DNA of 64,000 nt, taken from Escherichia phage VerenaGrendelmeier_Bas101. A model generated the notes under the pieces. It had not been told where the DNA came from and made no database searches. It saw nothing but the letters and a program-made list of their open reading frames with translations. This document shows, one piece after another, positions 23,178-45,629 of this stretch (positions are counted from its first letter, which is position 1; each line of letters begins with the position of its first letter). The stretch lies in sequence record PQ850631.1. One strand, 5' to 3'. Both the position numbers and the translations under genes were made by a program.

Positions 23178-23822
23178 ATGATTAATGCAAACGTGATATC
23201 TAAAGGGACCGGATGCAGCATGGATGTCGCAGAGAAATGGGTGGACCCTTTCAAGCAGGCTTGTGAGCACTACGGAATCAAAAGCAAGAACGCCATCGCG
23301 GCGTTGCTTGCAAACGTAGGAGTGGAAACAGGCAGTCTGAAGACATTTGTGGAAAACTTGAATTATTCCGCTCAAGGTCTTGCTAATACATGGCCTAGCC
23401 GTTACAGCGCCAGCGGTCGTTTCGGCGGTGCACCCAACTCCTTGGCATTGTCGATTGCCCGTAAACCAATGGAAATCGCCAATAATACATATGCAAACCG
23501 CATGGGCAACGGTTCGGTAGCATCGGGAGACGGTTGGAAGTACCGTGGCCGTGGTGCCATTCAGCTGACTGGAAAGGATAACTATGCAGATTATTCAAAG
23601 CAATCAGGCTATGACGCATTGAACAATCCTGATATTCTGACTGAACCAAAATACATCGCTGACAGCGCGGCATGGTTCTTTAAGAATAGCGGCTGTATTC
23701 CTCTTGCCGATGCGGGTGCATTTGATTCGACTGTTAAGCGGATTAACGGGGCCGCGCCGAATACGGCTAACCATGGGGATTTGCGACGGAAGCGTTACAA
23801 GGATGCACTAGCAGTTATGTAA
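23178..23822 (+). CDS. endolysin, glycoside hydrolase family 19-like
   Basis: Motif YRGRGAIQLTGKDNYADY and AAWFFKNSG consistent with GH19. Confidence 0.75.
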   Translation: MINANVISKGTGCSMDVAEKWVDPFKQACEHYGIKSKNAIAALLANVGVETGSLKTFVENLNYSAQGLANTWPSRYSASGRFGGAPNSLALSIARKPMEIANNTYANRMGNGSVASGDGWKYRGRGAIQLTGKDNYADYSKQSGYDALNNPDILTEPKYIADSAAWFFKNSGCIPLADAGAFDSTVKRINGAAPNTANHGDLRRKRYKDALAVM

Positions 23823-25771: not shown

Positions 25772-26361
25772 TCAAACTCCTTATTCATCACTTGTTCCAG
25801 CGCATAGGCGTAAGCCTGATCAGTCGATTTGATGAATGTGCCGTTGTACATGACACCTTTTCGGTCTTTAATGTCTTCGTAGGCCGCTTGCGCACAGTCG
25901 GATAAGCGAAGGCCATAATCATGAGCTACGCCGGAAAGGTAATCGGATGCGGCCATGATGGTCACGTCAATATCCATGGTCTGATTCTTAGCGATTGCAT
26001 CACCAAGTCGTCCAAGGGTCTTTGCCAGGCGAAGGATAAATGAATGAGGGTGAGCACCTTTATCAGCGCAACCGCCGCCATTAATGTTTTCGATTTCAGT
26101 ACCGTTTTGCGCTGCCAGGATGGTCAACACAACAAGGCAATCGCCGATGTCGTCCTTAATTGCTGCCTGCAAGTCACAGATGGCTTGCTCTGTATATCCA
26201 ATTTCAGGGTCGAAGAACACAAGGTCATGGAGTTGATCAACGTGGTCGGTTAACTCCCCGAACTCGCTGATAAGCTTCGGGTATTGGTCCTTAAGGTCGC
26301 AACCTTGGATGATGTTACGGTCAGAAGCCCACTGGCGAATGTTTGCATAAATCTGTTTCAT
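25768..26361 (-). CDS. MazG-like nucleotide pyrophosphohydrolase
   Basis: IRQWASDRNI, LISEFGELTDHV and IGDCLVVLTILAAQNG match the MazG-type EExxE helical pattern. Confidence 0.5.
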   Translation of the reverse strand: MKQIYANIRQWASDRNIIQGCDLKDQYPKLISEFGELTDHVDQLHDLVFFDPEIGYTEQAICDLQAAIKDDIGDCLVVLTILAAQNGTEIENINGGGCADKGAHPHSFILRLAKTLGRLGDAIAKNQTMDIDVTIMAASDYLSGVAHDYGLRLSDCAQAAYEDIKDRKGVMYNGTFIKSTDQAYAYALEQVMNKEFE

Positions 26362-26876
26362 TTATTTTCCTTTGATGCATTGAATTGATCGATTTTTATT
26401 TTAGCCTGATTATAAGTATCAATCAAGCTATTAACTTTCTCTTTTAATCGATTTGTTTCTGCGGCGAACTGAACAAGAAAACTGACATCTTCTTCTGATA
26501 GTCCACAGTTTCCTTCTGGGATAGAGAGGCGTCCAGTGGTCGCAGAGTCGGGCATACTCCTGAGTAACTCACGGGAGCAGCTGAGTTGCGCGCGCAACTT
26601 GATATTCCCAGACTTGTAACGAGCAATAGTGTCATCAGCAACCAGTTGCGCTTCCTGGCGACCCTTCTCATATGCCGATGCCGATTCAACCTGTAAAGAT
26701 GCAATTTGCTCTTCGAGTGCATTTATCTTGTCCTTACGCTCATTAAGCGATGTCAGATATTGATTATCCTTGACCAGTGATGCGTTGGTTTGCTGCAGGT
26801 CTTCAACGTATGATCCAGCGGCAAACGCGCCAACAAGGGCCAGAATCTTCAGGAGCGGTACAATTCTTTCTATCAT
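26358..26876 (-). CDS. Rz: i-spanin (Rz-like)
   Basis: N-terminal TM (ILALVGAFAAGSYV) followed by coiled-coil periplasmic domain; contains an embedded lipoprotein ORF. Confidence 0.65.
   Translation of the reverse strand: MIERIVPLLKILALVGAFAAGSYVEDLQQTNASLVKDNQYLTSLNERKDKINALEEQIASLQVESASAYEKGRQEAQLVADDTIARYKSGNIKLRAQLSCSRELLRSMPDSATTGRLSIPEGNCGLSEEDVSFLVQFAAETNRLKEKVNSLIDTYNQAKIKIDQFNASKENK
26444..26671 (-). CDS. Rz1: o-spanin (Rz1-like) lipoprotein, embedded in the Rz frame
   Basis: Alternative frame inside 26358-26876: MRRVARKRNWLLMTLLLVTSLGISSC with lipobox Cys; Pro-containing mature part. Confidence 0.55.
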   Translation of the reverse strand: MRRVARKRNWLLMTLLLVTSLGISSCARNSAAPVSYSGVCPTLRPLDASLSQKETVDYQKKMSVFLFSSPQKQID

Positions 26877-26894
26877 GATGCACCAGATAAATAA

Positions 26895-26916
26895 AAGGCC
26901 GCCAATCGGCAGCCTT
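26895..26916 (-). terminator. rho-independent terminator (minus strand)
   Basis: 9-bp stem with one mismatch; minus-strand transcript followed by UUUUAUUUAU. Confidence 0.5.
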
Positions 26917-26933: not shown

Positions 26934-27794
26934 TTAAAACTCTTCTGCGTCGGTCGGAGTTTCATTGACAGGACCAGCGGCACCGCTTGCTTCTTCCTGC
27001 TTGCTGCGGTCAATGTTAACGTTGCCGCCAACTACGTCATTGTGGAATGCCTTGGCGACTTCGTACAGACCTTTATCCTGCACCAGACCTTCCAGCTCAA
27101 ACTTAAGAACTGACCAGGTGTTGCCGTCTTTGGACTGAGATGCAGTGCCCATGCGAACAATGTTCATAAAGGTCGGCGGCGTTTTCAGACCCTGCGGAGT
27201 CTGAACTTTCTTCTGCTGCAGAGCGGTCATCAGCATGCGAGACGGCTTGATCATGGAAGAAGTCAGAGACAGCATTGCGCTACCAAATTCACCAGTTTCT
27301 TCGTTCAACAGAATTACGAAGTGGTTGCGTGTATCTGCGTAGTAAGGCGATTTCTTCTCGTGCACCTTGCCGTTTTCGTCCGGCACGAATACCTTACCGT
27401 TGATCTCAACAGCGCGGCCTGCCGCGACTTCTGCATCAACGTGCTCTTTGGTGAATTCACCTTTAAAGCCTTTATCATCGGACTCGCGACCGCCCCAAAG
27501 GATGAAGGTGCGTTTGAATGCGCAAGGGATGATCTGCACGCCTTTCTTGCCGTCATACAACTCACCAGTAACGGTGTTGTAAAGCATGCCAGCTTTTGCG
27601 CCAGGAACGTGTTTTGGATCATCTTCGTCGACCATAGGAGACATCTTCTGCAGTACGACGATAAAAGGAATGGCATACGCATCGGCATCGGCACCTTCAA
27701 AACCAGCGCCAAAATCGGTCATGTCGACAAAATCAGCCATAGCGGACATCTGGGTGTTTTTCACTGCAACTTCGGTGGTTTCTTTCTTAGACAT
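26934..27794 (-). CDS. putative single-stranded DNA-binding protein (acidic C-terminal tail ending in Phe)
   Basis: 286 aa; C-terminus ...NETPTDAEEF resembles the T7 gp2.5-type acidic tail with terminal aromatic residue. Confidence 0.4.
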   Translation of the reverse strand: MSKKETTEVAVKNTQMSAMADFVDMTDFGAGFEGADADAYAIPFIVVLQKMSPMVDEDDPKHVPGAKAGMLYNTVTGELYDGKKGVQIIPCAFKRTFILWGGRESDDKGFKGEFTKEHVDAEVAAGRAVEINGKVFVPDENGKVHEKKSPYYADTRNHFVILLNEETGEFGSAMLSLTSSMIKPSRMLMTALQQKKVQTPQGLKTPPTFMNIVRMGTASQSKDGNTWSVLKFELEGLVQDKGLYEVAKAFHNDVVGGNVNIDRSKQEEASGAAGPVNETPTDAEEF

Positions 27795-27853
27795 TTGATA
27801 TTTTCCTATAGTATCAAGTTTCGTGGCAACCTGATTTCAAGATAAAGGTTAAA

Positions 27854-28411
27854 TTACTTTTTGCTTTTAGGCAAGGTTATTTTAGCTTCTTTGTATTCAA
27901 AAACGCTAATATCTTCACTAACTGGATTGCCCGCTTCCAGCTGTTCTTTTACAAACGACTTCAGTGTAGCAGAATGAACGCCTTGTTTCAACGTGGCTTC
28001 AACACCATCTTCACGCAGTGCGGCAACAATCTCTTGCGCCTGTTCGATTTCTTCGCGACCGAACTCAGCCGTGACGCTGGACTTGATCAAGCCGCCGTAA
28101 CCGTTGTTGACAAGCCAATCGAAAACTTTTAATTCGTTTTCTTTCTTGATTGAAGCATTCACCTTGGACTCGACTTTGATTTTGGTCTTGTCCTCAAGCT
28201 TGATTTCAGACACACCAAGCTCATCCATTACGCCAGGAAGCAGAACAGTTTTGATTTCACTGATGCGCTGCTTTTGCATATCAGCTTCATCTTCAAGCTC
28301 TGTCAAAGCTTCTTGGCGTTCTGCCAGTTCAGATACTAAGCGCGCAAGGCGCTCTTGAATGCTCTCAGGAGCGACCTGCGGCAAATCATCTTCCCAATTA
28401 ATATTGCTCAT
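27854..28411 (-). CDS. hypothetical protein with N-terminal coiled coil
   Basis: 185 aa, acidic, coiled-coil N-terminus. Confidence 0.4.
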   Translation of the reverse strand: MSNINWEDDLPQVAPESIQERLARLVSELAERQEALTELEDEADMQKQRISEIKTVLLPGVMDELGVSEIKLEDKTKIKVESKVNASIKKENELKVFDWLVNNGYGGLIKSSVTAEFGREEIEQAQEIVAALREDGVEATLKQGVHSATLKSFVKEQLEAGNPVSEDISVFEYKEAKITLPKSKK

Positions 28412-28671
28412 ATTTTACCTTCTTGCATTAGCCCTTCAACACGGGTCATTTGATAACGTTCAGGTTTCCAAGCCGCCAAAGCCTTCTCAGCGCCTTTTAA
28501 GGTTTTATATGCCTTGATGCCAGGCATAATAACGGTATTCACCCCAGCACCGTTGCCATAATCAAACTCTTTAACAACGCGGAACATTCCGTCAATTTCT
28601 TTGACCAAAAGACGTTTGAAAGCGATTGCGCCAGTAGCTTCATTTTTGTAACGTTCAAGGATGCGTACCAT
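28408..28671 (-). CDS. hypothetical protein
   Basis: 87 aa ORF, overlapping stop/start with neighbour. Confidence 0.4.
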   Translation of the reverse strand: MVRILERYKNEATGAIAFKRLLVKEIDGMFRVVKEFDYGNGAGVNTVIMPGIKAYKTLKGAEKALAAWKPERYQMTRVEGLMQEGKI

Positions 28672-28747: not shown

Positions 28748-30271
28748 TTAATTCATCTTTTTGCCGTCGAGGATGTGATCAGCAAGCATAGACTTCATAC
28801 TTAGTGATCGCTGAATTTCTTCGTCGATGGTATCAACACCAATAAAATCAACATACAACACGCTTGATTTGGTGCCGATGCGGTGATTTCGGTCTTCGGA
28901 TTGCTTGCGCAGCTCGTTGTCATAGTTGCAAGAATAATAGATTGCCAAGTCGGCAGCGGTAAGCGTGATTCCGATGCCTGCCGCTGCAGCGTGGCAAACC
29001 AACACCTGTGTTCCACCATTCGCGACTGTGTTCTTCTGGAAGTCATCAATTAAGAACTCGCGCTGCTCTTTGGACGTTTCACCGTTGTATACACCAGTGA
29101 CCACGCCTTCAGACCCAAGCCAGTCCTTAATCTGGTTCATCTCTTCCTTAAAGATGGCCCAAACGATGAATTTGCGCTCTGGGTCGTCTTCCAGCACCCC
29201 TTCCACATAGTCCTTAAAGGCCGTGAATCGTGGGTTGTCTTCCATGTAGACCATCTCATCATACACCTTAACAAAGCCTGATGTCACCTGCTTCATCTTA
29301 GTGCGAGATGCGATCATCTCAAACTTAACGTTTTCTTCTTCGCCTTTGTACTCCATCAGATAGTTGTACTCATTCTTGAGTTCATCGTATACATCGCGCT
29401 GCTTAGGAGACAACTCGAAGTCGATAAACTTGTACACCTTCTCTGGAAGGTCCGGCAAGTATTCCGCTTTTGTCGCACGGAAATAGTGCGGCTCCATCAG
29501 CCGGATAAGCTTGTCAAGGTTTTTATACATCGGTCGGCCAAACTGGTCTTTGCGCGGCACTTGCGGAATGCCATAACCGTTGCCGCCGATTTTCTTGAGA
29601 ATGGCCTGCATCTCTGGGTCGTGCGCTTCAAGCAGCACTGTGAATTCAGAGTTGAATGCACGGAACGATTTGGTGCCGAGCAAGCCAGCTTCAAGGAAGT
29701 GATACTGCATGTAAATATCAGCAGGCGAGCGCGGCAGCGGCGTGCCGGAAAGTATGCGACGGGCCTTTGCCAGCCGTCCCAATTCTACAACCTTGATGGA
29801 GCGTTTGGCTGTGTTATTTTTGATACGCGTCGATTCGTCAATGATCATCAAACAGCGGTACTTCTTCAGGACAGACTCGATGTGTTGATAACCGACTGGT
29901 GTGTTGACAGTATCGATGTTGAATGAGAAGATGCGCGCAGGCACTTCACCTTCAGGATAGTGATCAGCAAACATCTTCTCCCAAATGGCTTTACCCTTTT
30001 TAGTTTTCATCTTGTCATTTCCGCGCCAGTAATGACCAATCCATTTAATGGAAAGGTGTTCTGGTGCTTCACGACGAATCCAGTTCGAGTGGACACCGTT
30101 AGGAGCGATGACAACCATGGCATCAAATGCGCCAGCGGCGAAGTGTTTTTCAAACTCTGCCAAAGCAGTCCAGGTTTTACCAAGACCCTGTTCCATAAAA
30201 TAAGCAAAGTATTTTCTGCGGCCTGCTTTATCAAGCGCCAATAATTGGTGGCGCATCCCTTGTGTTTTCAT
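28748..30271 (-). CDS. SNF2-family helicase
   Basis: Walker A QGLGKT, DExx-like IIDESTRIKN, LSGTPLP, motif VI EDRNHRIG. Confidence 0.7.
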   Translation of the reverse strand: MKTQGMRHQLLALDKAGRRKYFAYFMEQGLGKTWTALAEFEKHFAAGAFDAMVVIAPNGVHSNWIRREAPEHLSIKWIGHYWRGNDKMKTKKGKAIWEKMFADHYPEGEVPARIFSFNIDTVNTPVGYQHIESVLKKYRCLMIIDESTRIKNNTAKRSIKVVELGRLAKARRILSGTPLPRSPADIYMQYHFLEAGLLGTKSFRAFNSEFTVLLEAHDPEMQAILKKIGGNGYGIPQVPRKDQFGRPMYKNLDKLIRLMEPHYFRATKAEYLPDLPEKVYKFIDFELSPKQRDVYDELKNEYNYLMEYKGEEENVKFEMIASRTKMKQVTSGFVKVYDEMVYMEDNPRFTAFKDYVEGVLEDDPERKFIVWAIFKEEMNQIKDWLGSEGVVTGVYNGETSKEQREFLIDDFQKNTVANGGTQVLVCHAAAAGIGITLTAADLAIYYSCNYDNELRKQSEDRNHRIGTKSSVLYVDFIGVDTIDEEIQRSLSMKSMLADHILDGKKMN

Positions 30272-30690
30272 GACAATTCCTCTAAATACTTGATGATGTG
30301 ATGAATAGTTCCCTTCACGATTATCTCACGTTGAACGTCTGCAATATTATAACGCTTTAATTCAATAGAAGGGTGGACTAAATAAAACATCTTCTCAGAA
30401 TCAACCTTAAGCAGAACAAATGATGGGTATTTCCAATCATTCCACGAAGAAAGAAAGCTGCATTGGCCTTTCTCAAATGCATTTCTGAAAGGTGCAGTGG
30501 TGGCCCTTGCAGGCCACGATTCAAAGAACTTCATTTCAAGCCAAAAGCCGCGCCCTTTCCGGTTTGTGCCGATTACGTCCGGCACGCCATCACCAGTCAT
30601 CGACTCGATTCTTTGAAGCTTCAATACCGATTCTGAATGCTTCTTCAAAGGCACGAATATGTATTTCTGCTCACGGTTATTTGTTGCCAT
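30268..30690 (-). CDS. VRR-NUC domain nuclease
   Basis: GVPDVIG...GFWLEMKF matches the PD-(D/E)xK VRR-NUC pattern. Confidence 0.6.
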   Translation of the reverse strand: MATNNREQKYIFVPLKKHSESVLKLQRIESMTGDGVPDVIGTNRKGRGFWLEMKFFESWPARATTAPFRNAFEKGQCSFLSSWNDWKYPSFVLLKVDSEKMFYLVHPSIELKRYNIADVQREIIVKGTIHHIIKYLEELS

Positions 30691-33574
30691 CTGGATACAC
30701 CTGTTTGATCACATCAACGATGAACATGTCAATGCCTTCAAGCTTACGACCTTTCATCAGGAAGAATGCGCCGTTCCCGACGTTTTCAGCAATGTACTTC
30801 CCGTACTTCTGGAACTTCTCTGGACGAATCCTGAAGCGCATTGGCGAGTCGGTCGAGTCGTCTTTGCACATAAGGTCGATGAACTGAGTCTCAAGCTTGT
30901 TCCCGTACTGGTCAAACTCTGCGTAGCGGCCATCAGCTTGAAGACCCTTTTTAAGCTTTCCGTGCTTTGTATAAATGCCGCGCTCAAGACGTTTACGGAT
31001 GCGTGTTGCTTCGTTCTCGTCTGCAAGCACTTTCTTTGTCAACTTGCCGATTACTATTGCGCGCTCGTCATCACCGACTTCCTTCATCTGGCGTATTGAA
31101 GCACCGGAAGTAACGCCAATCAGATAGGGGTCATTATACGCCCAGCCGAACTTGGTGTGCATCTCTGTAAGGTCGCCGTATTTAACTTCAGCATTGGCCA
31201 ATGCACCCTTTTGCTTTTGCGTTAAGGTTCCGGCTTCACGTGCTTCGATATACTTCATCGCCTTCACCATTCCGTACCCTTTCGCGTTCATGATGCCGCC
31301 GATTAGCTTTCCGTTCGCGATGGTCCAGTTCATCGAAGAGTGATCAGGGTCGATTGGAACGTAATCCACGCCTTCCTTCGCAAGTTCACGTAATATCGCA
31401 ATCGTCTGGTCTTCGTCCTTAGCAGCGCGTAAGCAGGCAGCGGCAAATTCCAACGGGTAGTGTCGCTTAAGCCACAAGGTCCAGTAGGTCACGACCGCGT
31501 ATGACACGGAGTGTGACTTGTTAAAGCCCCATGACCCGAACGTAGCCATCGCTTGCCAAAGCTTTCTTGCATCCGCTTCCGGTACGCCGTTATTGATTGC
31601 GCCTGCAACAAAGTCCTCGCCAAGCTTGTTAAAGTATTCTTCACCCTTACGGCCTGACATCGCCTTACGTACAGCGGACGTTTTCGCCCAGTCAAATGAA
31701 CCAATCTCTTTAACAACGGCCATGATTTGCTCTTGGTAAAGAAACACGCCGTAAGTCTCTTTTAAGTATGGCTCAAGCTGCGGCACGTCGTATTCAATCG
31801 GCGCACGCCCTGCCGCGCGTTCAATGTATTTCTGGGCCATACCGGATGACAACGGGCCAGGTCGACCCAAAGCTGTCAGGTTGTCGATTTTGTTAAAGTT
31901 ATCGACGTGAACAAAGTTTGTTACTGAACGTACAGCATCACCTTCAAACTGGAAGATGCCTGACATCTTGTTTTCGTTAAGAATGTCAAGGACGCTTTGA
32001 TCATCAAGCTTGATTCCGTAGAGCGTTTCAGCATCAATAACGCCTGTATCAGAAATAATGCCGAGAGTACGAAGGCCCAACGCATCAAGCTTCAAAAGGT
32101 TAAGGTATTCGCTGTCAGGCTTATCGATTTGCGCAATCCCTTCTGCAGTTACAGTACAGTAATCAGAGATTGGGTCATTACACACAATGATTCCCGCTGC
32201 GTGAACACCTGTGTGAGACGGGTGAATCTCAAGGTCACCCATGCAACGCGCGGCGTCAGGATATTTCGCCACGAACTCTTGACCCGTGGTCGTTGTTGCA
32301 AAGGTATCCTCCAGGCCGTGACCATAACGGGCGTCACCGGATGAGTATTCAAGCAGTGCGTTTTTAATGTTGGCCGTTTCGTGGTATCCAATGTTGAACT
32401 TCTTACCAACCTGCGCCATTACTGAGTTGGCCTTAAGCGTGTTGATGTTGCCAAGCTTTGCAACGTTCATTTCGCCGTATTTCTCTTTAAGATAATCAAA
32501 CACCATATAGCGTTTGGTATCTTCAAAGTCGATGTCGATGTCAGGAAGGTCGGCGCGGCTTACGTCGATGAATCGGGCAAACAGTAGCTTATACGGGATT
32601 GGGTCCACTTCCGTGATGCCGAGGCAATAGCAAACAAGTGAACCAGCCGATGAGCCGCGCGCAGGACCGACGAGCATTTTTGTTTTTGCGAATCGCACAA
32701 GGTCCGCTACCACCAGAAAGTATGAGTCGAAATCTTTCAGCTGAATCTGGTGAATCTCTTCGTTGAAGCGGTCCTCATATTCCTGAGTCCATTCTTTGAT
32801 GTGACCTGCTTTTAGACGGTACTCCATCCCCTCACGAGCAAGCTTTACCATGTCACCAGCAAGGTGAATAATCGGTGCCTTACGCAATTTCAAGTCAAGT
32901 CCGACTATGCCGTTTGCTATGTCAACAGCATTGGCCGTTGCCTGATCAAGTTCATCTTCAGTCAAGATGCCTTTAAGCTGTTTGCGCAAGTCTTCCGCGT
33001 CAACGATGCAATGCGGCTTGACCGTGTCGCGCACTTCCCAAGCATAAGCAAAGTCAACGTGCTCAGGTGAAGGCATGTGGTTGTATCCGGTTAAAACCAG
33101 CGGCCTTCCACCGCTACGATGAGCCAATGCCTGGCGCTTTGCCAAAAGGAACGATGATGGGTTGACGTCTATATAGTCGTAGTCCTCTGGCCGCAGCAAC
33201 TCCACGGCACCGCCACAGAATTTAACGACGCCATCGAGCGCACCGAACTCTGCACGGGTAAGCCCACCGCGCTGCGTTGAAAGTGTTGTAGCATTGTAAA
33301 AAGATTTTAAGTCAAGGGCCAATATCCAAGCCTTCGGTTTGAATCCCTTTTTAGGGTCCGCATCAGGGTCGATGATTGGAATCTCCATCCCAAACATAGG
33401 CTTAATATCATTTTTCTGGCATTCCTTTTCCCAGCGAACGTGACCCCATGTGTTGTTATCAACTAATGCCGCGACTTCGCAGCCCAACTCTTTGAGCCGT
33501 GCTATAATTTCAGGATGCCGTCCATAAACTTCTTTGAACGTGTAACCGCTGCGAACTCTCAATTGTGGAAACAT
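30677..33574 (-). CDS. dnaE: DNA polymerase III alpha subunit-like (DnaE family)
   Basis: 965 aa; PHP-like N-terminus; catalytic block GPARGSSAGSLVCYCLGITEVDP...DLPDIDIDFE parallels E. coli DnaE. Confidence 0.8.
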   Translation of the reverse strand: MFPQLRVRSGYTFKEVYGRHPEIIARLKELGCEVAALVDNNTWGHVRWEKECQKNDIKPMFGMEIPIIDPDADPKKGFKPKAWILALDLKSFYNATTLSTQRGGLTRAEFGALDGVVKFCGGAVELLRPEDYDYIDVNPSSFLLAKRQALAHRSGGRPLVLTGYNHMPSPEHVDFAYAWEVRDTVKPHCIVDAEDLRKQLKGILTEDELDQATANAVDIANGIVGLDLKLRKAPIIHLAGDMVKLAREGMEYRLKAGHIKEWTQEYEDRFNEEIHQIQLKDFDSYFLVVADLVRFAKTKMLVGPARGSSAGSLVCYCLGITEVDPIPYKLLFARFIDVSRADLPDIDIDFEDTKRYMVFDYLKEKYGEMNVAKLGNINTLKANSVMAQVGKKFNIGYHETANIKNALLEYSSGDARYGHGLEDTFATTTTGQEFVAKYPDAARCMGDLEIHPSHTGVHAAGIIVCNDPISDYCTVTAEGIAQIDKPDSEYLNLLKLDALGLRTLGIISDTGVIDAETLYGIKLDDQSVLDILNENKMSGIFQFEGDAVRSVTNFVHVDNFNKIDNLTALGRPGPLSSGMAQKYIERAAGRAPIEYDVPQLEPYLKETYGVFLYQEQIMAVVKEIGSFDWAKTSAVRKAMSGRKGEEYFNKLGEDFVAGAINNGVPEADARKLWQAMATFGSWGFNKSHSVSYAVVTYWTLWLKRHYPLEFAAACLRAAKDEDQTIAILRELAKEGVDYVPIDPDHSSMNWTIANGKLIGGIMNAKGYGMVKAMKYIEAREAGTLTQKQKGALANAEVKYGDLTEMHTKFGWAYNDPYLIGVTSGASIRQMKEVGDDERAIVIGKLTKKVLADENEATRIRKRLERGIYTKHGKLKKGLQADGRYAEFDQYGNKLETQFIDLMCKDDSTDSPMRFRIRPEKFQKYGKYIAENVGNGAFFLMKGRKLEGIDMFIVDVIKQVYPDGNK

Positions 33575-34116
33575 TATTTACTCCAGATGTCATATACGCC
33601 AATTTGTTGGCAGACTTTGTGCAGTAATATTACGTCGTCTAATGCACGGTGTTTCTGTTCATATTTTCCGAAATATAATTCATACAGCTCTTGAAGCTTA
33701 ACTCTTCGGCCAAAAATAGGCAAGGTTTGCTCAACTGTACAAATGTTTATTTCTGGAAAATTAACATCATCAAGCGTAAGTCCTTCGCGCTGTAGTGCAT
33801 AATCAAGAATGTTTTTATCGAACGCATGGTTGTGCGCGATAGTGGCATCCGTCTTCTTGAAGATTTCTTTTAGCTGCGGGACAAAATTGATGAATGGTGG
33901 ATTGCACTCAAGGTCTTCATTTGTTAATCCGGTAATCTTTGTGATAATTTCTTCAATCACGATTTCAGGATTAATTATGAATTCAAACGTTTCAAGAATC
34001 TCTTTGCCGTCTGTCAACAGACCTGCAAATTCAATAGGGCGCGGCTGCATCCCAAGCGGCGCTTTCGGGTGCACGGTCAATCCGGTTGTTTCGAAGTCAT
34101 AAGGGAGAAATAACAC
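33574..34116 (-). CDS. dnaQ: DnaQ-like 3'-5' proofreading exonuclease
   Basis: Exo motifs DFETTGL, AHNHAFD, HRALDD. Confidence 0.75.
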   Translation of the reverse strand: MLFLPYDFETTGLTVHPKAPLGMQPRPIEFAGLLTDGKEILETFEFIINPEIVIEEIITKITGLTNEDLECNPPFINFVPQLKEIFKKTDATIAHNHAFDKNILDYALQREGLTLDDVNFPEINICTVEQTLPIFGRRVKLQELYELYFGKYEQKHRALDDVILLHKVCQQIGVYDIWSK

Positions 34117-41566: not shown

Positions 41567-42649
41567 ATGGCTAGTTTAAGAGAAGAAGCAAAAATAATTG
41601 AAGAGTTTTTAACAGAACTCCAAAGAGGCATCCCAGAAGATGAGCGCGTCATGACGGTGTTTGCTCCTGAAGCAACGGTACAGACCGACGAGCGCGGCAA
41701 GAAGATCAACAGCAGCTTCTGGCCTAAGCCTTGGAAGTTGGGCAAGCCGCTCATGCAGCACCAAAACGGCTATGCTTGCATCAGTTCAATGCGTAAGTCT
41801 CCCAACCCAAAGACGGGTGAGATGCGATACTGGCGTACAGAGTCGGCCTTTGGTCACGGCATGGCGATGATGGTCGACGACATCGGTCACGGTAAAGGGT
41901 CCAAAGGCGATTTAGATTTGGAGTTCTTTTTCGAGCGACTGAAGCCGACTGTCATAGTCGAGACGTCACCGAACAACCACCAGCTTTGGTACTTCTTTAA
42001 AGAACCGATTGACCATCTTATTCAGTTCAAAGCATTTCTTGGGTCTTTCGTTAACATGGTACTCAAGAAGGGCGGCGACAACACGATTAAAGACGTAACG
42101 CGCGTTGGCCGTGTTCCTGGGTGCATCAACAACAAGCGTGTGACTCACGACGGCCCCTATAAATATGTCGATGAGAACGGCGACCCGTTCCGCTGCCGAC
42201 TTGTCCATGCAGACTACTCCTTGCGCTACACCATCGAAGACATCTGTCAGGCATTCGGCTTTCACGTCGTTATGCCGCAAAAGCGTGAGATTCAAATTGA
42301 CGTAGATGAATACAAGTACGATGCTGTTTGGTATAAAATAGCCCAGCAGATTCTAGCGCGCAACAAGATGGGTGAAGGGTCTGATGGCGACGTCATCGAG
42401 AATATGTCAGGCAAGTGCCGCATAATCTGCCCTTGGGGTGAAGAACACACCAACGGCGACCCGTATGGCGCTTACTTTCGCGGCCCTATCCCTGGTGCAG
42501 AACATGAGTTTGTGTTCGGTTGCGCCCACGACTGTCACCGGAAAGGGGAAGGCAAGAAAGGTTGGACTGCTTTTGTTGAAGCAATCGTCATGCCTTATAT
42601 TGAGAATCAACTTGACATGATAAATCGTCGTGCAGGTGGCATAAAATAG
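41567..42649 (+). CDS. AEP-family primase-polymerase with C-terminal zinc-binding motif
   Basis: AEP motifs MMVDDIG, SPNNHQLWYFF and RVGRVPGCINNK (R.PG..N.K); C-terminal CPWGEEH...CAHDCH. Confidence 0.55.
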   Translation: MASLREEAKIIEEFLTELQRGIPEDERVMTVFAPEATVQTDERGKKINSSFWPKPWKLGKPLMQHQNGYACISSMRKSPNPKTGEMRYWRTESAFGHGMAMMVDDIGHGKGSKGDLDLEFFFERLKPTVIVETSPNNHQLWYFFKEPIDHLIQFKAFLGSFVNMVLKKGGDNTIKDVTRVGRVPGCINNKRVTHDGPYKYVDENGDPFRCRLVHADYSLRYTIEDICQAFGFHVVMPQKREIQIDVDEYKYDAVWYKIAQQILARNKMGEGSDGDVIENMSGKCRIICPWGEEHTNGDPYGAYFRGPIPGAEHEFVFGCAHDCHRKGEGKKGWTAFVEAIVMPYIENQLDMINRRAGGIK

Positions 42650-43958: not shown

Positions 43959-45629
43959 ATGTCAATTAATAATGACAATCTTCCAGAGGATACAGGTGAT
44001 GAATTTGGTGCAATCTTTGACGAAATTCAAGATGCAGGCGTTTCGGAAGAAATGCAGGCAGCAGAGCAGCAAGGCACCAGAGCTAAAATCAGCCTTCAAC
44101 ACAAAGCCGTTGAAAAAGATTCAGAGCGCATGGAGTGTTACGGTGAAGAAGACTTGGTTGAAAGAGCACGCTTGCTCGCCTCACTTCAGGTAATCAAGTT
44201 CCCTCACTACAAGCCGACCAAAGATGACTTCGTTCTACAGGCAGACCGGACGAGTGACATGAACCGCTATGCGGTGTTCGACGCGTTGTTTGATAAGGGA
44301 AGTGGCATTGTTCCATTCCCTCACAAAGATACTTTTCGTGGGCGCTTAGTCGACCATCGCGGCGAAACATTCACTGACCGTACCTTGGAAGTCACAGAGA
44401 TAGTTGCCGCTGTCGACGCAGCAGGGCTGTCTAACCCAAACTCACGTCAGGTTGCTCAATCCTATAAGGAATGGGCCATGCGTTATCAGCGCGACGACCT
44501 GATGGACTTCTTCTACAAGAAGCTGCCTGAATGGGACGGTACTGCGCGCATCGAGAAATACCTTATCGAGCTATTCCGACCGTTCGATACAGAGTTAAAC
44601 CGACAAATCGGTGTGTATTTTTGGCTATCGCTCTACAACCGCCTGACCAACCCTGGCTGTCAAGCGCCAATCTCCATCGCGCTCATCGGCGGCCAGAACG
44701 CAGGGAAGAGTTATTTTAGCAAGCTGCTTTGCGAAGCTATTATGAACGACCGCCACGCAACACCGATTCCGTTGAACTTAGCCGCGCAAAACTTCAACCC
44801 GTTCTTGCGAGCTATTACGGGTCGCTCGATTATCGCGAACGTCGGCGAGATGACAGGCTTTAAAAAGGCCGACATCGAAAACATGAAAGCATTCCTGACT
44901 AAGACGGAAGATGACCTGGACTTCAAATTTGAAGATACGCAGGTTAAACCACGCCAGTGGATTGCTATCATGGACGGCAACGAATACGCAGGCATGCAGC
45001 GTGATGACACGGGCAACCGTCGTGTGTATCCTATCTTTGTTGGCCAACTCGCCGACAAGGACGGGCAACCGAACTGGTCGAAAGATTTCCAAGCTGACCT
45101 TTCCACTTTGAAAGAAGACGTTTGGCAGCTTATGGCTGAGTGCGCTGCGTGGATGGAGAAGCACGGCGAAGCAGGCTATAACGCGTTTGTTGGTGAAACA
45201 TCTCGCATGCTTACTGAGTTCAGTAAAAACGAGATGGAACGCGCTCGCGGCGTTATCCGTGATGAGATGGTTGACAACGACCTTGTTGAAGTCGTCATCA
45301 CCGCGCCTTATGATCGACATCACAGCGGACGCTGGCACATCACCAGTGGTGCTATTGCTATGGGATTCAGAGCGAAGTGCGGCAAGTCGCCTTTCTCTCG
45401 TACCCTTGCGCCGCACATGTCGAAGCTTGGTTTTGAGCCTGCAACCTATCGCAACCAGCGCGGTTACTTTACGCCGCTGATTAAGAATGAAGCAGGGGAA
45501 TACATTTCTGATTTGATGACCATCTTAGCGTATCTTATCCGCGATGAGTCTGACCCTGAAGATATTGAATTCTTGAAGAAGGTTATCGAGCGTAAACGTT
45601 CTTTGGGAAGAGATAAGGATGAATTCTGA
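43959..45629 (+). CDS. P-loop NTPase, VirE/D5-like primase-associated helicase
   Basis: 556 aa; Walker A IALIGGQNAGKSY; AGGAGGA RBS. Confidence 0.5.
   Translation: MSINNDNLPEDTGDEFGAIFDEIQDAGVSEEMQAAEQQGTRAKISLQHKAVEKDSERMECYGEEDLVERARLLASLQVIKFPHYKPTKDDFVLQADRTSDMNRYAVFDALFDKGSGIVPFPHKDTFRGRLVDHRGETFTDRTLEVTEIVAAVDAAGLSNPNSRQVAQSYKEWAMRYQRDDLMDFFYKKLPEWDGTARIEKYLIELFRPFDTELNRQIGVYFWLSLYNRLTNPGCQAPISIALIGGQNAGKSYFSKLLCEAIMNDRHATPIPLNLAAQNFNPFLRAITGRSIIANVGEMTGFKKADIENMKAFLTKTEDDLDFKFEDTQVKPRQWIAIMDGNEYAGMQRDDTGNRRVYPIFVGQLADKDGQPNWSKDFQADLSTLKEDVWQLMAECAAWMEKHGEAGYNAFVGETSRMLTEFSKNEMERARGVIRDEMVDNDLVEVVITAPYDRHHSGRWHITSGAIAMGFRAKCGKSPFSRTLAPHMSKLGFEPATYRNQRGYFTPLIKNEAGEYISDLMTILAYLIRDESDPEDIEFLKKVIERKRSLGRDKDEF

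What the first reader, a model, noticed from the sequence alone, without database searches (positions are those of the whole stretch)
26934..27794. Candidate ssDNA-binding protein with acidic tail ending in Phe
The 286-aa protein ends ...PVNETPTDAEEF. An acidic C-terminal tail with a terminal aromatic residue is the interaction module by which T7 gp2.5-type SSBs contact polymerase and helicase. Here the partners would be a DnaE-type polymerase and an AEP primase, an unusual combination.
Basis: inference. Interest (0 to 1): 0.4.

Follow-up and report, generated by a model that had tools for sequence, protein, structure and literature searches.

The report
Likely phage ssDNA-binding protein, unnamed family
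This phage gene probably encodes the virus's missing single-stranded-DNA-binding protein: a predicted DNA-binding barrel plus a flexible acidic tail that always ends in a bulky hydrophobic residue, belonging to a very large, unstudied family that always travels with one unknown partner gene.

Summary
The ORF is real: minus strand, 26934-27794, 286 aa, ending ...PTDAEEF. The window is an Escherichia phage of genus Wifcevirus (100% identical protein in ECML-117). The protein is Pfam PF23977 (Pam3_Gp34) and phrog_2402, both without assigned function.

The tail is under strong selection. All 119 full-length close homologues end in Phe. So do 107 of 141 diverse representatives (128 of 141 hydrophobic). 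All 77 distinct IMG/VR copies end in F, Y, L or M. Many distant members end ...DDIPF, the bacterial SSB tip.

The family is not tied to DnaE; family-A polymerase phages carry it more often. It is tied to an upstream DUF7307 gene (74 of 83 loci).

Verdict: the SSB reading is partly supported and plausible but untested. The core is not gp2.5-like. A recombination-annealing role remains open, because one Vibrio phage also encodes a separate SSB.

The parts
26934..27794 (-). Whole gene: 286-aa PF23977 (Pam3_Gp34) / phrog_2402 protein, candidate ssDNA-binding protein
   Evidence: ORF and translation. Pfam 4e-86 and PHROG 4e-105, both of unknown function. 100% identical to a hypothetical protein of Escherichia phage ECML-117.
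27675..27794 (-). N-terminal low-confidence segment (aa 1-40): Lys-rich start, then the conserved acidic/aromatic motif DF..DFG.GFEG.D
   Evidence: pLDDT 39-62. G31 is invariant and E33 nearly invariant in the diverse alignment. Net charge -5. Its function is only inferred (self-association or partner contact).
27015..27674 (-). Ordered core (aa 41-260), predicted OB-type beta-barrel domain with inserted helices
26952..27014 (-). Variable Ala/Gly/Glu/Asp-rich linker (aa 261-281)
   Evidence: pLDDT 56-66. In the family, the segment after residue 255 (this linker plus the tip) is 7-40 aa, median 23. Mean top-residue frequency is 0.22 against 0.48 in the core.
26937..26951 (-). C-terminal tip D-A-E-E-F, putative docking peptide
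   Evidence: Terminal F in 119/119 close homologues. Family tip profile: D/E at -6 to -4, P most common at -2, F at -1. Many distant members end DDIPF, DDVPF or EEIPF. The tip type tracks the polymerase type.
26885..26916 (-). Terminator-like hairpin plus T-run directly after the stop codon
   Evidence: 9-bp stem with 6 G-C pairs, then TTATTTATCT; the best such site in 24.5-31 kb. A consensus match only.
27800..27829 (-). Weak sigma-70-like promoter match upstream of the start (ribosome-binding site AGGAAA lies just downstream at about 27802-27807)
   Evidence: TTGCCA-18-GAAAAT, 9 of 12 matches; sequence. Weak; 15 such sites were found against 8.8 expected.
27854..28411 (-). Upstream partner gene, DUF7307 (Pam3 gp33-like), 185 aa: long helix followed by an alpha/beta domain
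28408..28671 (-). 87-aa protein (phrog_27467) overlapping the DUF7307 start; a small ORF fills this slot in distant loci too
   Evidence: No sequence match between the loci; only the position is conserved.
28748..30271 (-). SNF2-family ATPase/translocase
   Evidence: Pfam SNF2-rel_dom 1e-21 and Helicase_C. A homologue is found in 43 of the 83 loci, usually within ~1-2.5 kb of the family gene.
30268..30690 (-). 140-aa PD-(D/E)xK-type nuclease (possible junction resolvase)
   Evidence: phrog_2165, with a weak match to phrog_843 Holliday junction resolvase. Motif GVPDVIG...WLEMKF is visible in the sequence. The Pbunavirus protein PBanzai_057, encoded next to the SNF2-like translocase gene, is called a resolvase in PMC12390725; orthology is assumed from position.
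30677..34116 (-). DnaE-like polymerase (965 aa) and RNase T-type proofreading exonuclease (180 aa): candidate tail partners
   Evidence: Annotation of ECML-117 and kaset. Pfam RNase_T 1e-21 and phrog_192. The partner role is inferred only.
41567..42649 (+). RepB-type primase
   Evidence: Pfam PF16793 RepB_primase 4.5e-36; phrog_4861 DNA primase.
43959..45629 (+). VapE/D5-like helicase, annotated 'DNA primase' in phage records
   Evidence: Pfam VapE-like_dom 1.6e-28; phrog_4630.

Best explanation
The gene encodes the phage's own single-stranded-DNA-binding protein, with three parts.

1. Core (about aa 41-260). An OB-type barrel binds ssDNA through a face of conserved aromatic and basic residues. 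This step is inferred from the predicted fold.
2. Linker. A variable Ala/Gly/Asp/Glu-rich segment follows the core.
3. Tip. A short acidic tip ends in Phe (DAEEF here). Like the C-terminal tips of bacterial SSB and T7 gp2.5, it would act as a docking peptide. It would recruit replication and recombination proteins to coated ssDNA. It might also fold back on the DNA-binding face when no DNA is bound.

Likely partners are the phage DnaE-like polymerase with its exonuclease, the SNF2 translocase and the VapE-like helicase or primase. In relatives whose tip reads DDIPF, host proteins that recognise the SSB tip are also candidates.

The protein almost certainly works with the product of the upstream DUF7307 gene, whose role is unknown.

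Shown: the ORF, the family, the predicted fold and its best structural neighbours, selection on the tail, and the gene linkage. Inferred: DNA binding, the docking function and the identity of the partners.
For: - Experimental anchor. TG1 gp25, described as similar to phiC31 gp3, binds ssDNA but not dsDNA in EMSA and has a gp32-like fold (bioRxiv 10.1101/2024.08.21.608926).
- Conserved residues. Aromatic and basic residues alternate on strands (F93/R95/F97, W100, R103, F110, R156, F159, W227).
- Tail. Phe is terminal in 119/119 close homologues and 107/141 diverse ones (128/141 hydrophobic). The tip profile is D/E-D/E-D/E-x-P/x-F after a 7-40 aa low-complexity linker. Many members end DDIPF, DDVPF or EEIPF. 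This matches the SSB-Ct hexapeptide DDDIPF (PMC5872125).
- Context. The gene lies between the SNF2 ATPase/DnaE and the ligase.
- No rival SSB. No other SSB family was seen among the window ORFs scanned or in the part of a relative's annotation examined. One search displayed only 25 of 46 matched PHROG families.
- Literature gap. The latest review of the Pbunavirus replisome lists polymerase, exonuclease, primase, ligase, three helicases and a resolvase, but no SSB (PMC12390725).
- Tip tracks polymerase type. 7 of 9 DnaE loci have an acidic-x-F tip; 0 of 28 PolA loci do.
Against: - There is no sequence-level homology to any known SSB. hhalign probabilities are 2% or lower against gp3, gp32, gp2.5 and the K228 SSB. 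141 diverse members hit only PF23977 in Pfam.
- The gp32/gp3 zinc site is absent.
- Several invariant polar residues (Q49, S52, D154, T155, H158, S179, S185) are unusual for a plain SSB.
- Vibrio phage K228 encodes a family member plus a separately annotated SSB ending DFDDGIPF.
- The strict pairing with DUF7307 suggests a more specialised two-protein function.
- No experiment exists for any member.
Confidence: 0.55

Rival explanations
1. It is a single-strand annealing or recombination-mediator protein rather than the replicative SSB. It would be one half of a two-protein module with DUF7307. That module would act with the SNF2 translocase and the PD-(D/E)xK nuclease in recombination-dependent replication or fork repair. 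Bulk ssDNA would be coated by the host SSB or by another phage SSB.
For: - The DUF7307 gene lies directly upstream in 74 of 83 loci, and an SNF2 homologue occurs in 43 loci.
- A nuclease gene is adjacent here and an 'endonuclease' gene in K228.
- K228 has a separate SSB two genes downstream of its family member.
- T7 gp2.5 shows that an OB protein with this kind of tail can both coat and anneal ssDNA (established knowledge).
Against: - Known annealing proteins (Red-beta/RecT, Erf, Rad52-like, Sak4) bind the SSB tip rather than carry one (established knowledge).
- The fold matches SSB-type OB domains, not Rad52-like or RecA-like folds.
- No other SSB was found in this phage.
Confidence: 0.22
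2. It is mainly a decoy or hijacker of the host SSB interaction network. The C-terminal tip would mimic the bacterial SSB tip to capture or inhibit host proteins such as exonuclease I, RecQ, PriA or the chi subunit. DNA binding would be secondary or absent.
For: Many family members end in DDIPF, EEIPF or DDVPF, nearly the host SSB hexapeptide.
Against: - A 220-residue conserved OB-type core is not needed for a peptide decoy.
- In this phage and its DnaE-encoding relatives the tip is A-[DE]-x-F, not IPF. That fits a phage-encoded partner better.
Confidence: 0.06
3. It is not a DNA-binding protein at all. It could be a lysis protein, as one database record says ('putative holin'), or a structural or unknown enzymatic protein whose barrel only resembles an OB fold.
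For: - A Pseudomonas phage phiLCL12 homologue is annotated 'putative holin'.
- A spanin-like gene lies directly downstream.
- Invariant polar residues (D154, T155, H158) could mark an active site.
Against: - No hydrophobic membrane-spanning segment is visible in the sequence.
- The gene is conserved inside replication modules of very different phages.
- The acidic tail with a terminal aromatic residue has no known role in holins.
Confidence: 0.07

Closest known systems
phiC31 gp3 / TG1 gp25 (Pfam PF18897): serine-integrase directionality factors that are also phage SSBs
   Same: - Similar size (244 against 286 aa).
- Encoded among replication genes.
- TG1 gp25 binds ssDNA and not dsDNA.
   Different: - No sequence or profile similarity.
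- gp3 has a His/Cys zinc site (HHC...C.C) that is absent here.
- gp3 ends ...NDAIAD, with no acidic tail and no terminal Phe.
- There is no serine integrase in this virulent phage.
- There is no DUF7307 partner in phiC31.
T4 / RB69 gp32
   Same: - Three-part layout: an N-terminal segment, a core, and an acidic C-terminal protein-interaction domain (established knowledge).
   Different: - No zinc site.
- gp32 ends ...DDLLNDL, not in Phe.
- No profile similarity.
- The resemblance of the N-terminus to the gp32 KRKST motif is weak and confined to close relatives.
T7 gp2.5
   Same: An acidic C-terminal tail ending in Phe (...EADEDGDF, against ...PTDAEEF here). In T7 this tail contacts the polymerase and helicase and needs the terminal Phe (established knowledge).
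   Different: - No profile similarity.
- The gp2.5 tail is far more acidic.
Bacterial SSB (Pfam PF00436) and its C-terminal tip DDDIPF
   Same: - Layout of OB domain, low-complexity linker, then acidic tip ending in Phe.
- Many family members end DDIPF, EEIPF or DDVPF. The motif is as cited in PMC5872125.
   Different: - No PF00436 match in 141 members.
- The core is about twice the size of an SSB OB domain.
- This phage's tip is DAEEF, without Ile-Pro.
- The oligomeric state is unknown.

Membership tests
Pfam PF23977 (Pam3_Gp34) / phrog_2402 | Profile match above the curated threshold over the whole domain | tested here: met
   289 bits against a cut-off of 27, covering residues 15-259. phrog_2402 E 4e-105.
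T7 gp2.5-type SSB | Sequence or profile similarity to gp2.5 | tested here: not met
   hhalign probability 0.1% for both family alignments against gp2.5. No Pfam family other than PF23977 in 141 members.
T7 gp2.5-type SSB | gp2.5-like OB fold as the nearest structural neighbour | tested here: not met
   [not shown]
T7 gp2.5-type SSB | Acidic C-terminal tail with an essential terminal aromatic residue | tested here: met
   The tail has net charge -5 and ends in Phe. Phe is conserved in 119/119 close homologues. Whether it is essential was not tested.
T7 gp2.5-type SSB | Binds ssDNA, anneals strands, and binds polymerase and helicase through the tail | not testable with these tools
   Needs biochemistry.
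Bacterial SSB (PF00436) | PF00436 OB-domain profile match | tested here: not met
   No match in the window protein or in 141 diverse members at E up to 0.05.
Bacterial SSB (PF00436) | Disordered linker followed by the conserved tip D-D-D-I-P-F | tested here: inconclusive
   A linker is present. The tip here is DAEEF (acidic with terminal Phe, but no Ile-Pro). Many distant members carry DDIPF-like tips.
T4 gp32 family | Zinc-binding His/Cys3 site in the core | tested here: not met
   The protein has only one Cys (C91). No conserved Cys/His cluster appears among the invariant columns.
T4 gp32 family | Profile similarity to gp32 | tested here: not met
   hhalign probability 0.3%.
phiC31 gp3 family (PF18897) | Profile match or profile-profile homology | tested here: not met
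   Alignment against alignment gives hhalign probability 2%. No PF18897 match in 141 diverse members of this family; the gp3 homologues all carry PF18897.
phiC31 gp3 family (PF18897) | Shared three-dimensional fold | tested here: met
   [not shown]
OB-fold ssDNA-binding proteins in general | Five-stranded barrel with a helix between strands 3 and 4, and aromatic/basic residues on the binding face | tested here: inconclusive
   The secondary-structure order and the many OB hits fit. The conserved aromatic/basic pattern fits. Model coordinates could not be inspected, so the binding face was not mapped.

The most novel reading that the evidence does not exclude
PF23977 together with the DUF7307 gene directly upstream would be a previously unrecognised, very widespread two-protein ssDNA-handling module of tailed phages. 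The profile search found 4,784 clusters at 50% identity. The OB-fold component carries its own SSB-type C-terminal tip. That tip co-varies with the replisome type: A-[DE]-x-F with DnaE polymerases, x-P-F/Y with family-A polymerases, and DDIPF in further members of unknown context. In this reading it is the missing SSB of Lindbergviridae, which include the therapeutic Pbunavirus phages and the very fast-replicating Wifcevirus phages. It may also tap the host SSB interaction network.
Probability: 0.35. Interest if true: 0.6.

Novelty: new variant of a known kind. Interest (0 to 1): 0.45.

Why it matters
- **Missing replisome part.** Every autonomous replisome needs an ssDNA-binding protein. None has been assigned in Pbunavirus or Wifcevirus phages (PMC12390725). 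Pbunavirus phages are among the Pseudomonas phages most used in therapy, and Wifcevirus phages are reported to replicate unusually fast (PMC11990801).
- **Large unannotated family.** Giving PF23977 a function would annotate a family of thousands of clusters that is currently 'hypothetical', and once 'holin'.
- **Evolutionary test case.** It would add a fourth sequence-unrelated phage SSB lineage carrying a convergent acidic tail ending in Phe. Because the tip type tracks the polymerase type, the family offers a natural experiment on how such tips co-evolve with their partners.
- **Defence systems.** Phage SSBs are known triggers of bacterial defence systems (own knowledge). Unrecognised SSB families therefore matter for predicting phage sensitivity.

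Tried and rejected
1. Sequence searches of the PDB with the protein and with the family profile found nothing below E 0.6.
2. Foldseek against the PDB found nothing significant and missed even gp3.
3. hhalign of the family alignments against phiC31 gp3 (single sequence and a 36-sequence alignment), T7 gp2.5, T4 gp32 and the K228 SSB all gave probabilities of 2% or less.
4. A Pfam scan of 141 diverse members found no second family. NCBIfam found nothing.
5. The DUF7307 partner remains unassigned:
   - AF2 model with pLDDT 78.
   - PDB profile search empty.
   - A lenient Pfam scan of 34 members showed nothing recurrent.
6. The search for related loci with the diverse alignment A3 failed because it had no conserved stretch. 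The closer alignment A1 was used instead.
7. Literature searches for PF23977, Pam3_Gp34, DUF7307 and phrog_2402 returned no paper. Pam3/gp34 hits concerned other proteins.
8. A gp32-like N-terminal 'LAST' motif (MSKKETTEVA against MFKRKSTAELA) occurs in 66 of 119 close homologues but only 12 of 143 diverse ones. It was rejected as a family feature.
9. The 'holin' annotation of a homologue was rejected: no membrane segment, and a replication context.
10. Cluster look-ups of ten distant members gave only 'hypothetical protein' or no name.

Full report
**1. The observation**

The ORF lies on the minus strand at 26934-27794. It has an ATG start preceded by AGGAAA, encodes 286 aa, and ends ...GPVNETPTDAEEF followed by TAA. 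The plus-strand frame is closed by stops. The last 26 residues and the first 40 each carry net charge -5, while the 220-residue middle is neutral. A terminator-like hairpin (9 bp, 6 G-C, then a T-run), the best in the region, follows at 26916-26895. The description is therefore correct, with the strand added.

**2. Where the window comes from**

The protein is 100% identical to a hypothetical protein of Escherichia phage ECML-117 and 99.7% identical to one of phage kaset. Both belong to genus Wifcevirus, family Lindbergviridae, which are relatives of the Pseudomonas PB1-like Pbunavirus phages.

The gene sits in the minus-strand replication block. Its neighbours, in order along that strand, are:
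- a Dda/RecD-like helicase;
- ThyX;
- a polynucleotide kinase;
- an RNase T-type exonuclease;
- a DnaE-like polymerase;
- a 140-aa PD-(D/E)xK nuclease;
- an SNF2 ATPase;
- an 87-aa ORF;
- DUF7307;
- this gene;
- a spanin-like gene;
- MazG;
- an ATP-dependent ligase.

A RepB-type primase and a VapE/D5-like helicase lie on the other strand.

**3. Family**

The protein matches Pfam PF23977 (Pam3_Gp34, 289 bits) and phrog_2402, both without function. No paper in the library mentions these identifiers.

The family is very large. A profile search of 1.84 billion representatives returned 4,784 clusters at E up to 1e-3, and 945 at E up to 1e-30. In the phage collection it occurs in 509 records: mostly Pseudomonas, but also Vibrio, Escherichia, Acinetobacter, Serratia, Bordetella, Burkholderia, Xanthomonas and others. 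Source names are 'hypothetical protein', once 'putative holin'.

**4. Fold**

An AlphaFold2 model built on 60 homologues has mean pLDDT 85. The core (residues 41-260) is mostly above 90. The first 40 and last 26 residues are of low confidence.

- T4 and RB69 gp32 (4.8 and 4.7);

Unrelated chitinases and ligases are interspersed among these. Foldseek found nothing significant.

The gp3 hit is informative. A 2024 preprint (also PMC11795197) showed that TG1 gp25, described as similar to phiC31 gp3, has a gp32-like OB fold. It binds ssDNA but not dsDNA in gel-shift assays, so it is a phage SSB moonlighting as a directionality factor.

There are caveats:
- The gp3 chain in 9teh was started from an AF3 model.
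- There is no sequence-level support. hhalign of the family alignments against gp3 (also as a 36-sequence alignment), gp32, gp2.5 or the K228 SSB gives probabilities of 2% or less. Pfam finds only PF23977 in 141 diverse members.
- The zinc site of gp32 and gp3 is absent.

**5. The tail**

This is the strongest part of the finding.
- All 119 full-length close homologues end in Phe, with a tip consensus P-x-[DE]-A-[DE]-x-F.
- In an alignment of 141 diverse representatives, the segment after residue 255 is 7-40 residues long (median 23) and rich in Ala, Gly, Glu and Asp.
- That linker is poorly conserved (top-residue frequency 0.22 against 0.48 in the core).
- Yet it ends in a tip with D/E at positions -6 to -4, Pro the most common residue at -2, and Phe at -1 in 107 sequences. 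128 of 141 end in a hydrophobic residue.
- Many representatives end ...DDDIPF, DDIPF, EEIPF or DDVPF. That is the C-terminal hexapeptide through which bacterial SSB binds its partners (DDDIPF; PMC5872125).
- All 77 distinct copies in IMG/VR loci end in F (52), Y (17), L (4) or M (4).

The layout of core, low-complexity linker and acidic tip with a terminal aromatic residue is that of bacterial SSB and T7 gp2.5 (gp2.5 ends ...EADEDGDF). gp3 lacks such a tail and gp32 does not end in Phe.

**6. Gene context across relatives**

I fetched 80 IMG/VR loci with the family alignment and searched their ORFs with the window's proteins.
- A DUF7307 homologue lies on the same strand directly upstream in 74 of 83 loci. 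These are essentially all loci with enough upstream DNA, and the gap is mostly -4 to +60 nt. This is a strictly conserved gene pair.
- An SNF2 ATPase was found in 43 loci, usually within 1-2.5 kb.
- A DnaE-like polymerase was found in only 9 loci. A family-A polymerase (Pfam PF00476) was found in 30, together with AEP-type primases and UvrD-like helicases.

The tip type tracks the polymerase type. Seven of 9 DnaE loci have an acidic-x-F tip, against none of 28 PolA loci; 16 of those 28 end in x-P-[FY]. This fits co-adaptation of the tip with replisome partners, but shared ancestry could explain it equally well.

**7. A caveat from Vibrio phage K228**

There the order SNF2 - DUF7307 - family member is kept. 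Two genes downstream, however, lies a separately annotated 159-aa SSB ending PPMDFDDGIPF, next to the family-A polymerase and the primase. The family member itself ends DDIPAEM. At least some phages therefore have two tail-bearing ssDNA-protein candidates. That keeps a recombination or annealing role open for this family.

**8. Is there another SSB in this phage?**

- Pfam and PHROGs scans of the replication-block proteins, and of 34 further uncharacterised ORFs, showed no SSB family. The PHROGs summary displayed only 25 of its 46 families.
- The annotation of phage kaset, examined over about 41 kb around the gene, names none.
- A 2025 analysis of a Pbunavirus lists polymerase, exonuclease, primase, ligase, three helicases/translocases and a resolvase, but no SSB (PMC12390725).

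**9. The partner DUF7307**

**10. Conclusion**

The most likely reading (about 0.55) is an OB-fold ssDNA-binding protein. Its acidic tip ending in Phe would dock replication or recombination partners. It would work with the DUF7307 protein and fill the unassigned SSB slot of Lindbergviridae.

The rivals are:
- an annealing or mediator role within an SNF2/nuclease recombination module (about 0.22);
- a decoy for the host SSB network (about 0.06);
- a non-DNA-binding protein (about 0.07).

The protein works like an SSB of the gp2.5 or bacterial type in its tail, and like gp3 or gp32 in its core. By sequence it is a member of none of these families. I rate it a new variant of a known kind, of moderate interest, and fully testable by simple biochemistry.

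Noticed in passing
window 26358-26876 (-) with embedded 26444-26722 (-): The Rz-like spanin gene (phrog_1327) contains an out-of-frame embedded ORF with a signal-peptide and lipobox-like stretch ...LLVTSLGISSC. This is probably an embedded Rz1-type outer-membrane spanin. The pair sits inside the replication block, about 2.5 kb from the endolysin gene (23178-23822, +) and on the opposite strand.
   Followed up: partly
window 26885-26916 (-): The strongest terminator-like hairpin of the 24.5-31 kb region lies directly after the candidate SSB gene. This suggests the gene closes a transcription unit or is expressed more strongly than the genes downstream.
   Followed up: no
L006 (Vibrio phage K228) 10104-10583 and 8875-9669: The 159-aa annotated SSB has no Pfam match, but its last residues PPMDFDDGIPF are almost identical to the E. 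coli SSB C-terminus. The PF23977 member of the same phage ends DDIPAEM, which looks like a degenerate tip.
   Followed up: partly
window 27854-28411 (-) and loci L005-L087: A DUF7307 gene is always directly upstream of the PF23977 gene (74 of 83 loci), often with start/stop overlap. Its fold (a long helix plus an alpha/beta domain) matched nothing informative.
   Followed up: yes
window 28408-28671 (-); L045 9107-9451; L052 9025-9375; L016 9106-9447; L005 7901-8254: A small ORF (87 aa here, 113-117 aa in the listed loci) occupies the slot just upstream of DUF7307 in distant phages. No sequence similarity between them was detectable.
   Followed up: no
window 30268-30690 (-): This 140-aa protein is annotated 'DNA helicase' in phage kaset and in PHROGs (phrog_2165). 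It carries a PD...E.K nuclease motif (GVPDVIG...WLEMKF). A Pbunavirus protein encoded next to the SNF2-like gene is called a Holliday junction resolvase in PMC12390725. The helicase name is probably a misannotation.
   Followed up: partly
Pseudomonas phage phiLCL12 (OQ428192.1 26879-27610): The PF23977 homologue is annotated 'putative holin'. This is very unlikely, given the soluble OB-type model and the replication context.
   Followed up: partly
window 27762-27794 (-), aa 1-11: The N-terminus MSKKETTEVAV resembles the basic T4 gp32 N-terminus MFKRKSTAELA. The [ST]E[VLI]A motif is enriched in close homologues (66/119 against 9 in shuffles) but rare in diverse ones (12/143). Wider family N-termini are simply Lys/Ala-rich.
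   Followed up: yes
window 27615-27674 (-), aa 41-60, and aa 150-160: The most conserved stretches of the family are not typical SSB motifs: AIPFLxxLQKxSPxVD...GAKAGM and ADTRxH. They include nearly invariant polar residues Q49, S52, D154, T155 and H158. Their role is unexplained and might indicate more than passive ssDNA coating.
   Followed up: no
window 41567-42649 (+) and 43959-45629 (+): The two genes annotated 'DNA primase' differ in kind. The first is a RepB-type primase (PF16793). The second is a VapE/D5-like NTPase (PF05272), which is more likely the replicative helicase or initiator.
   Followed up: partly
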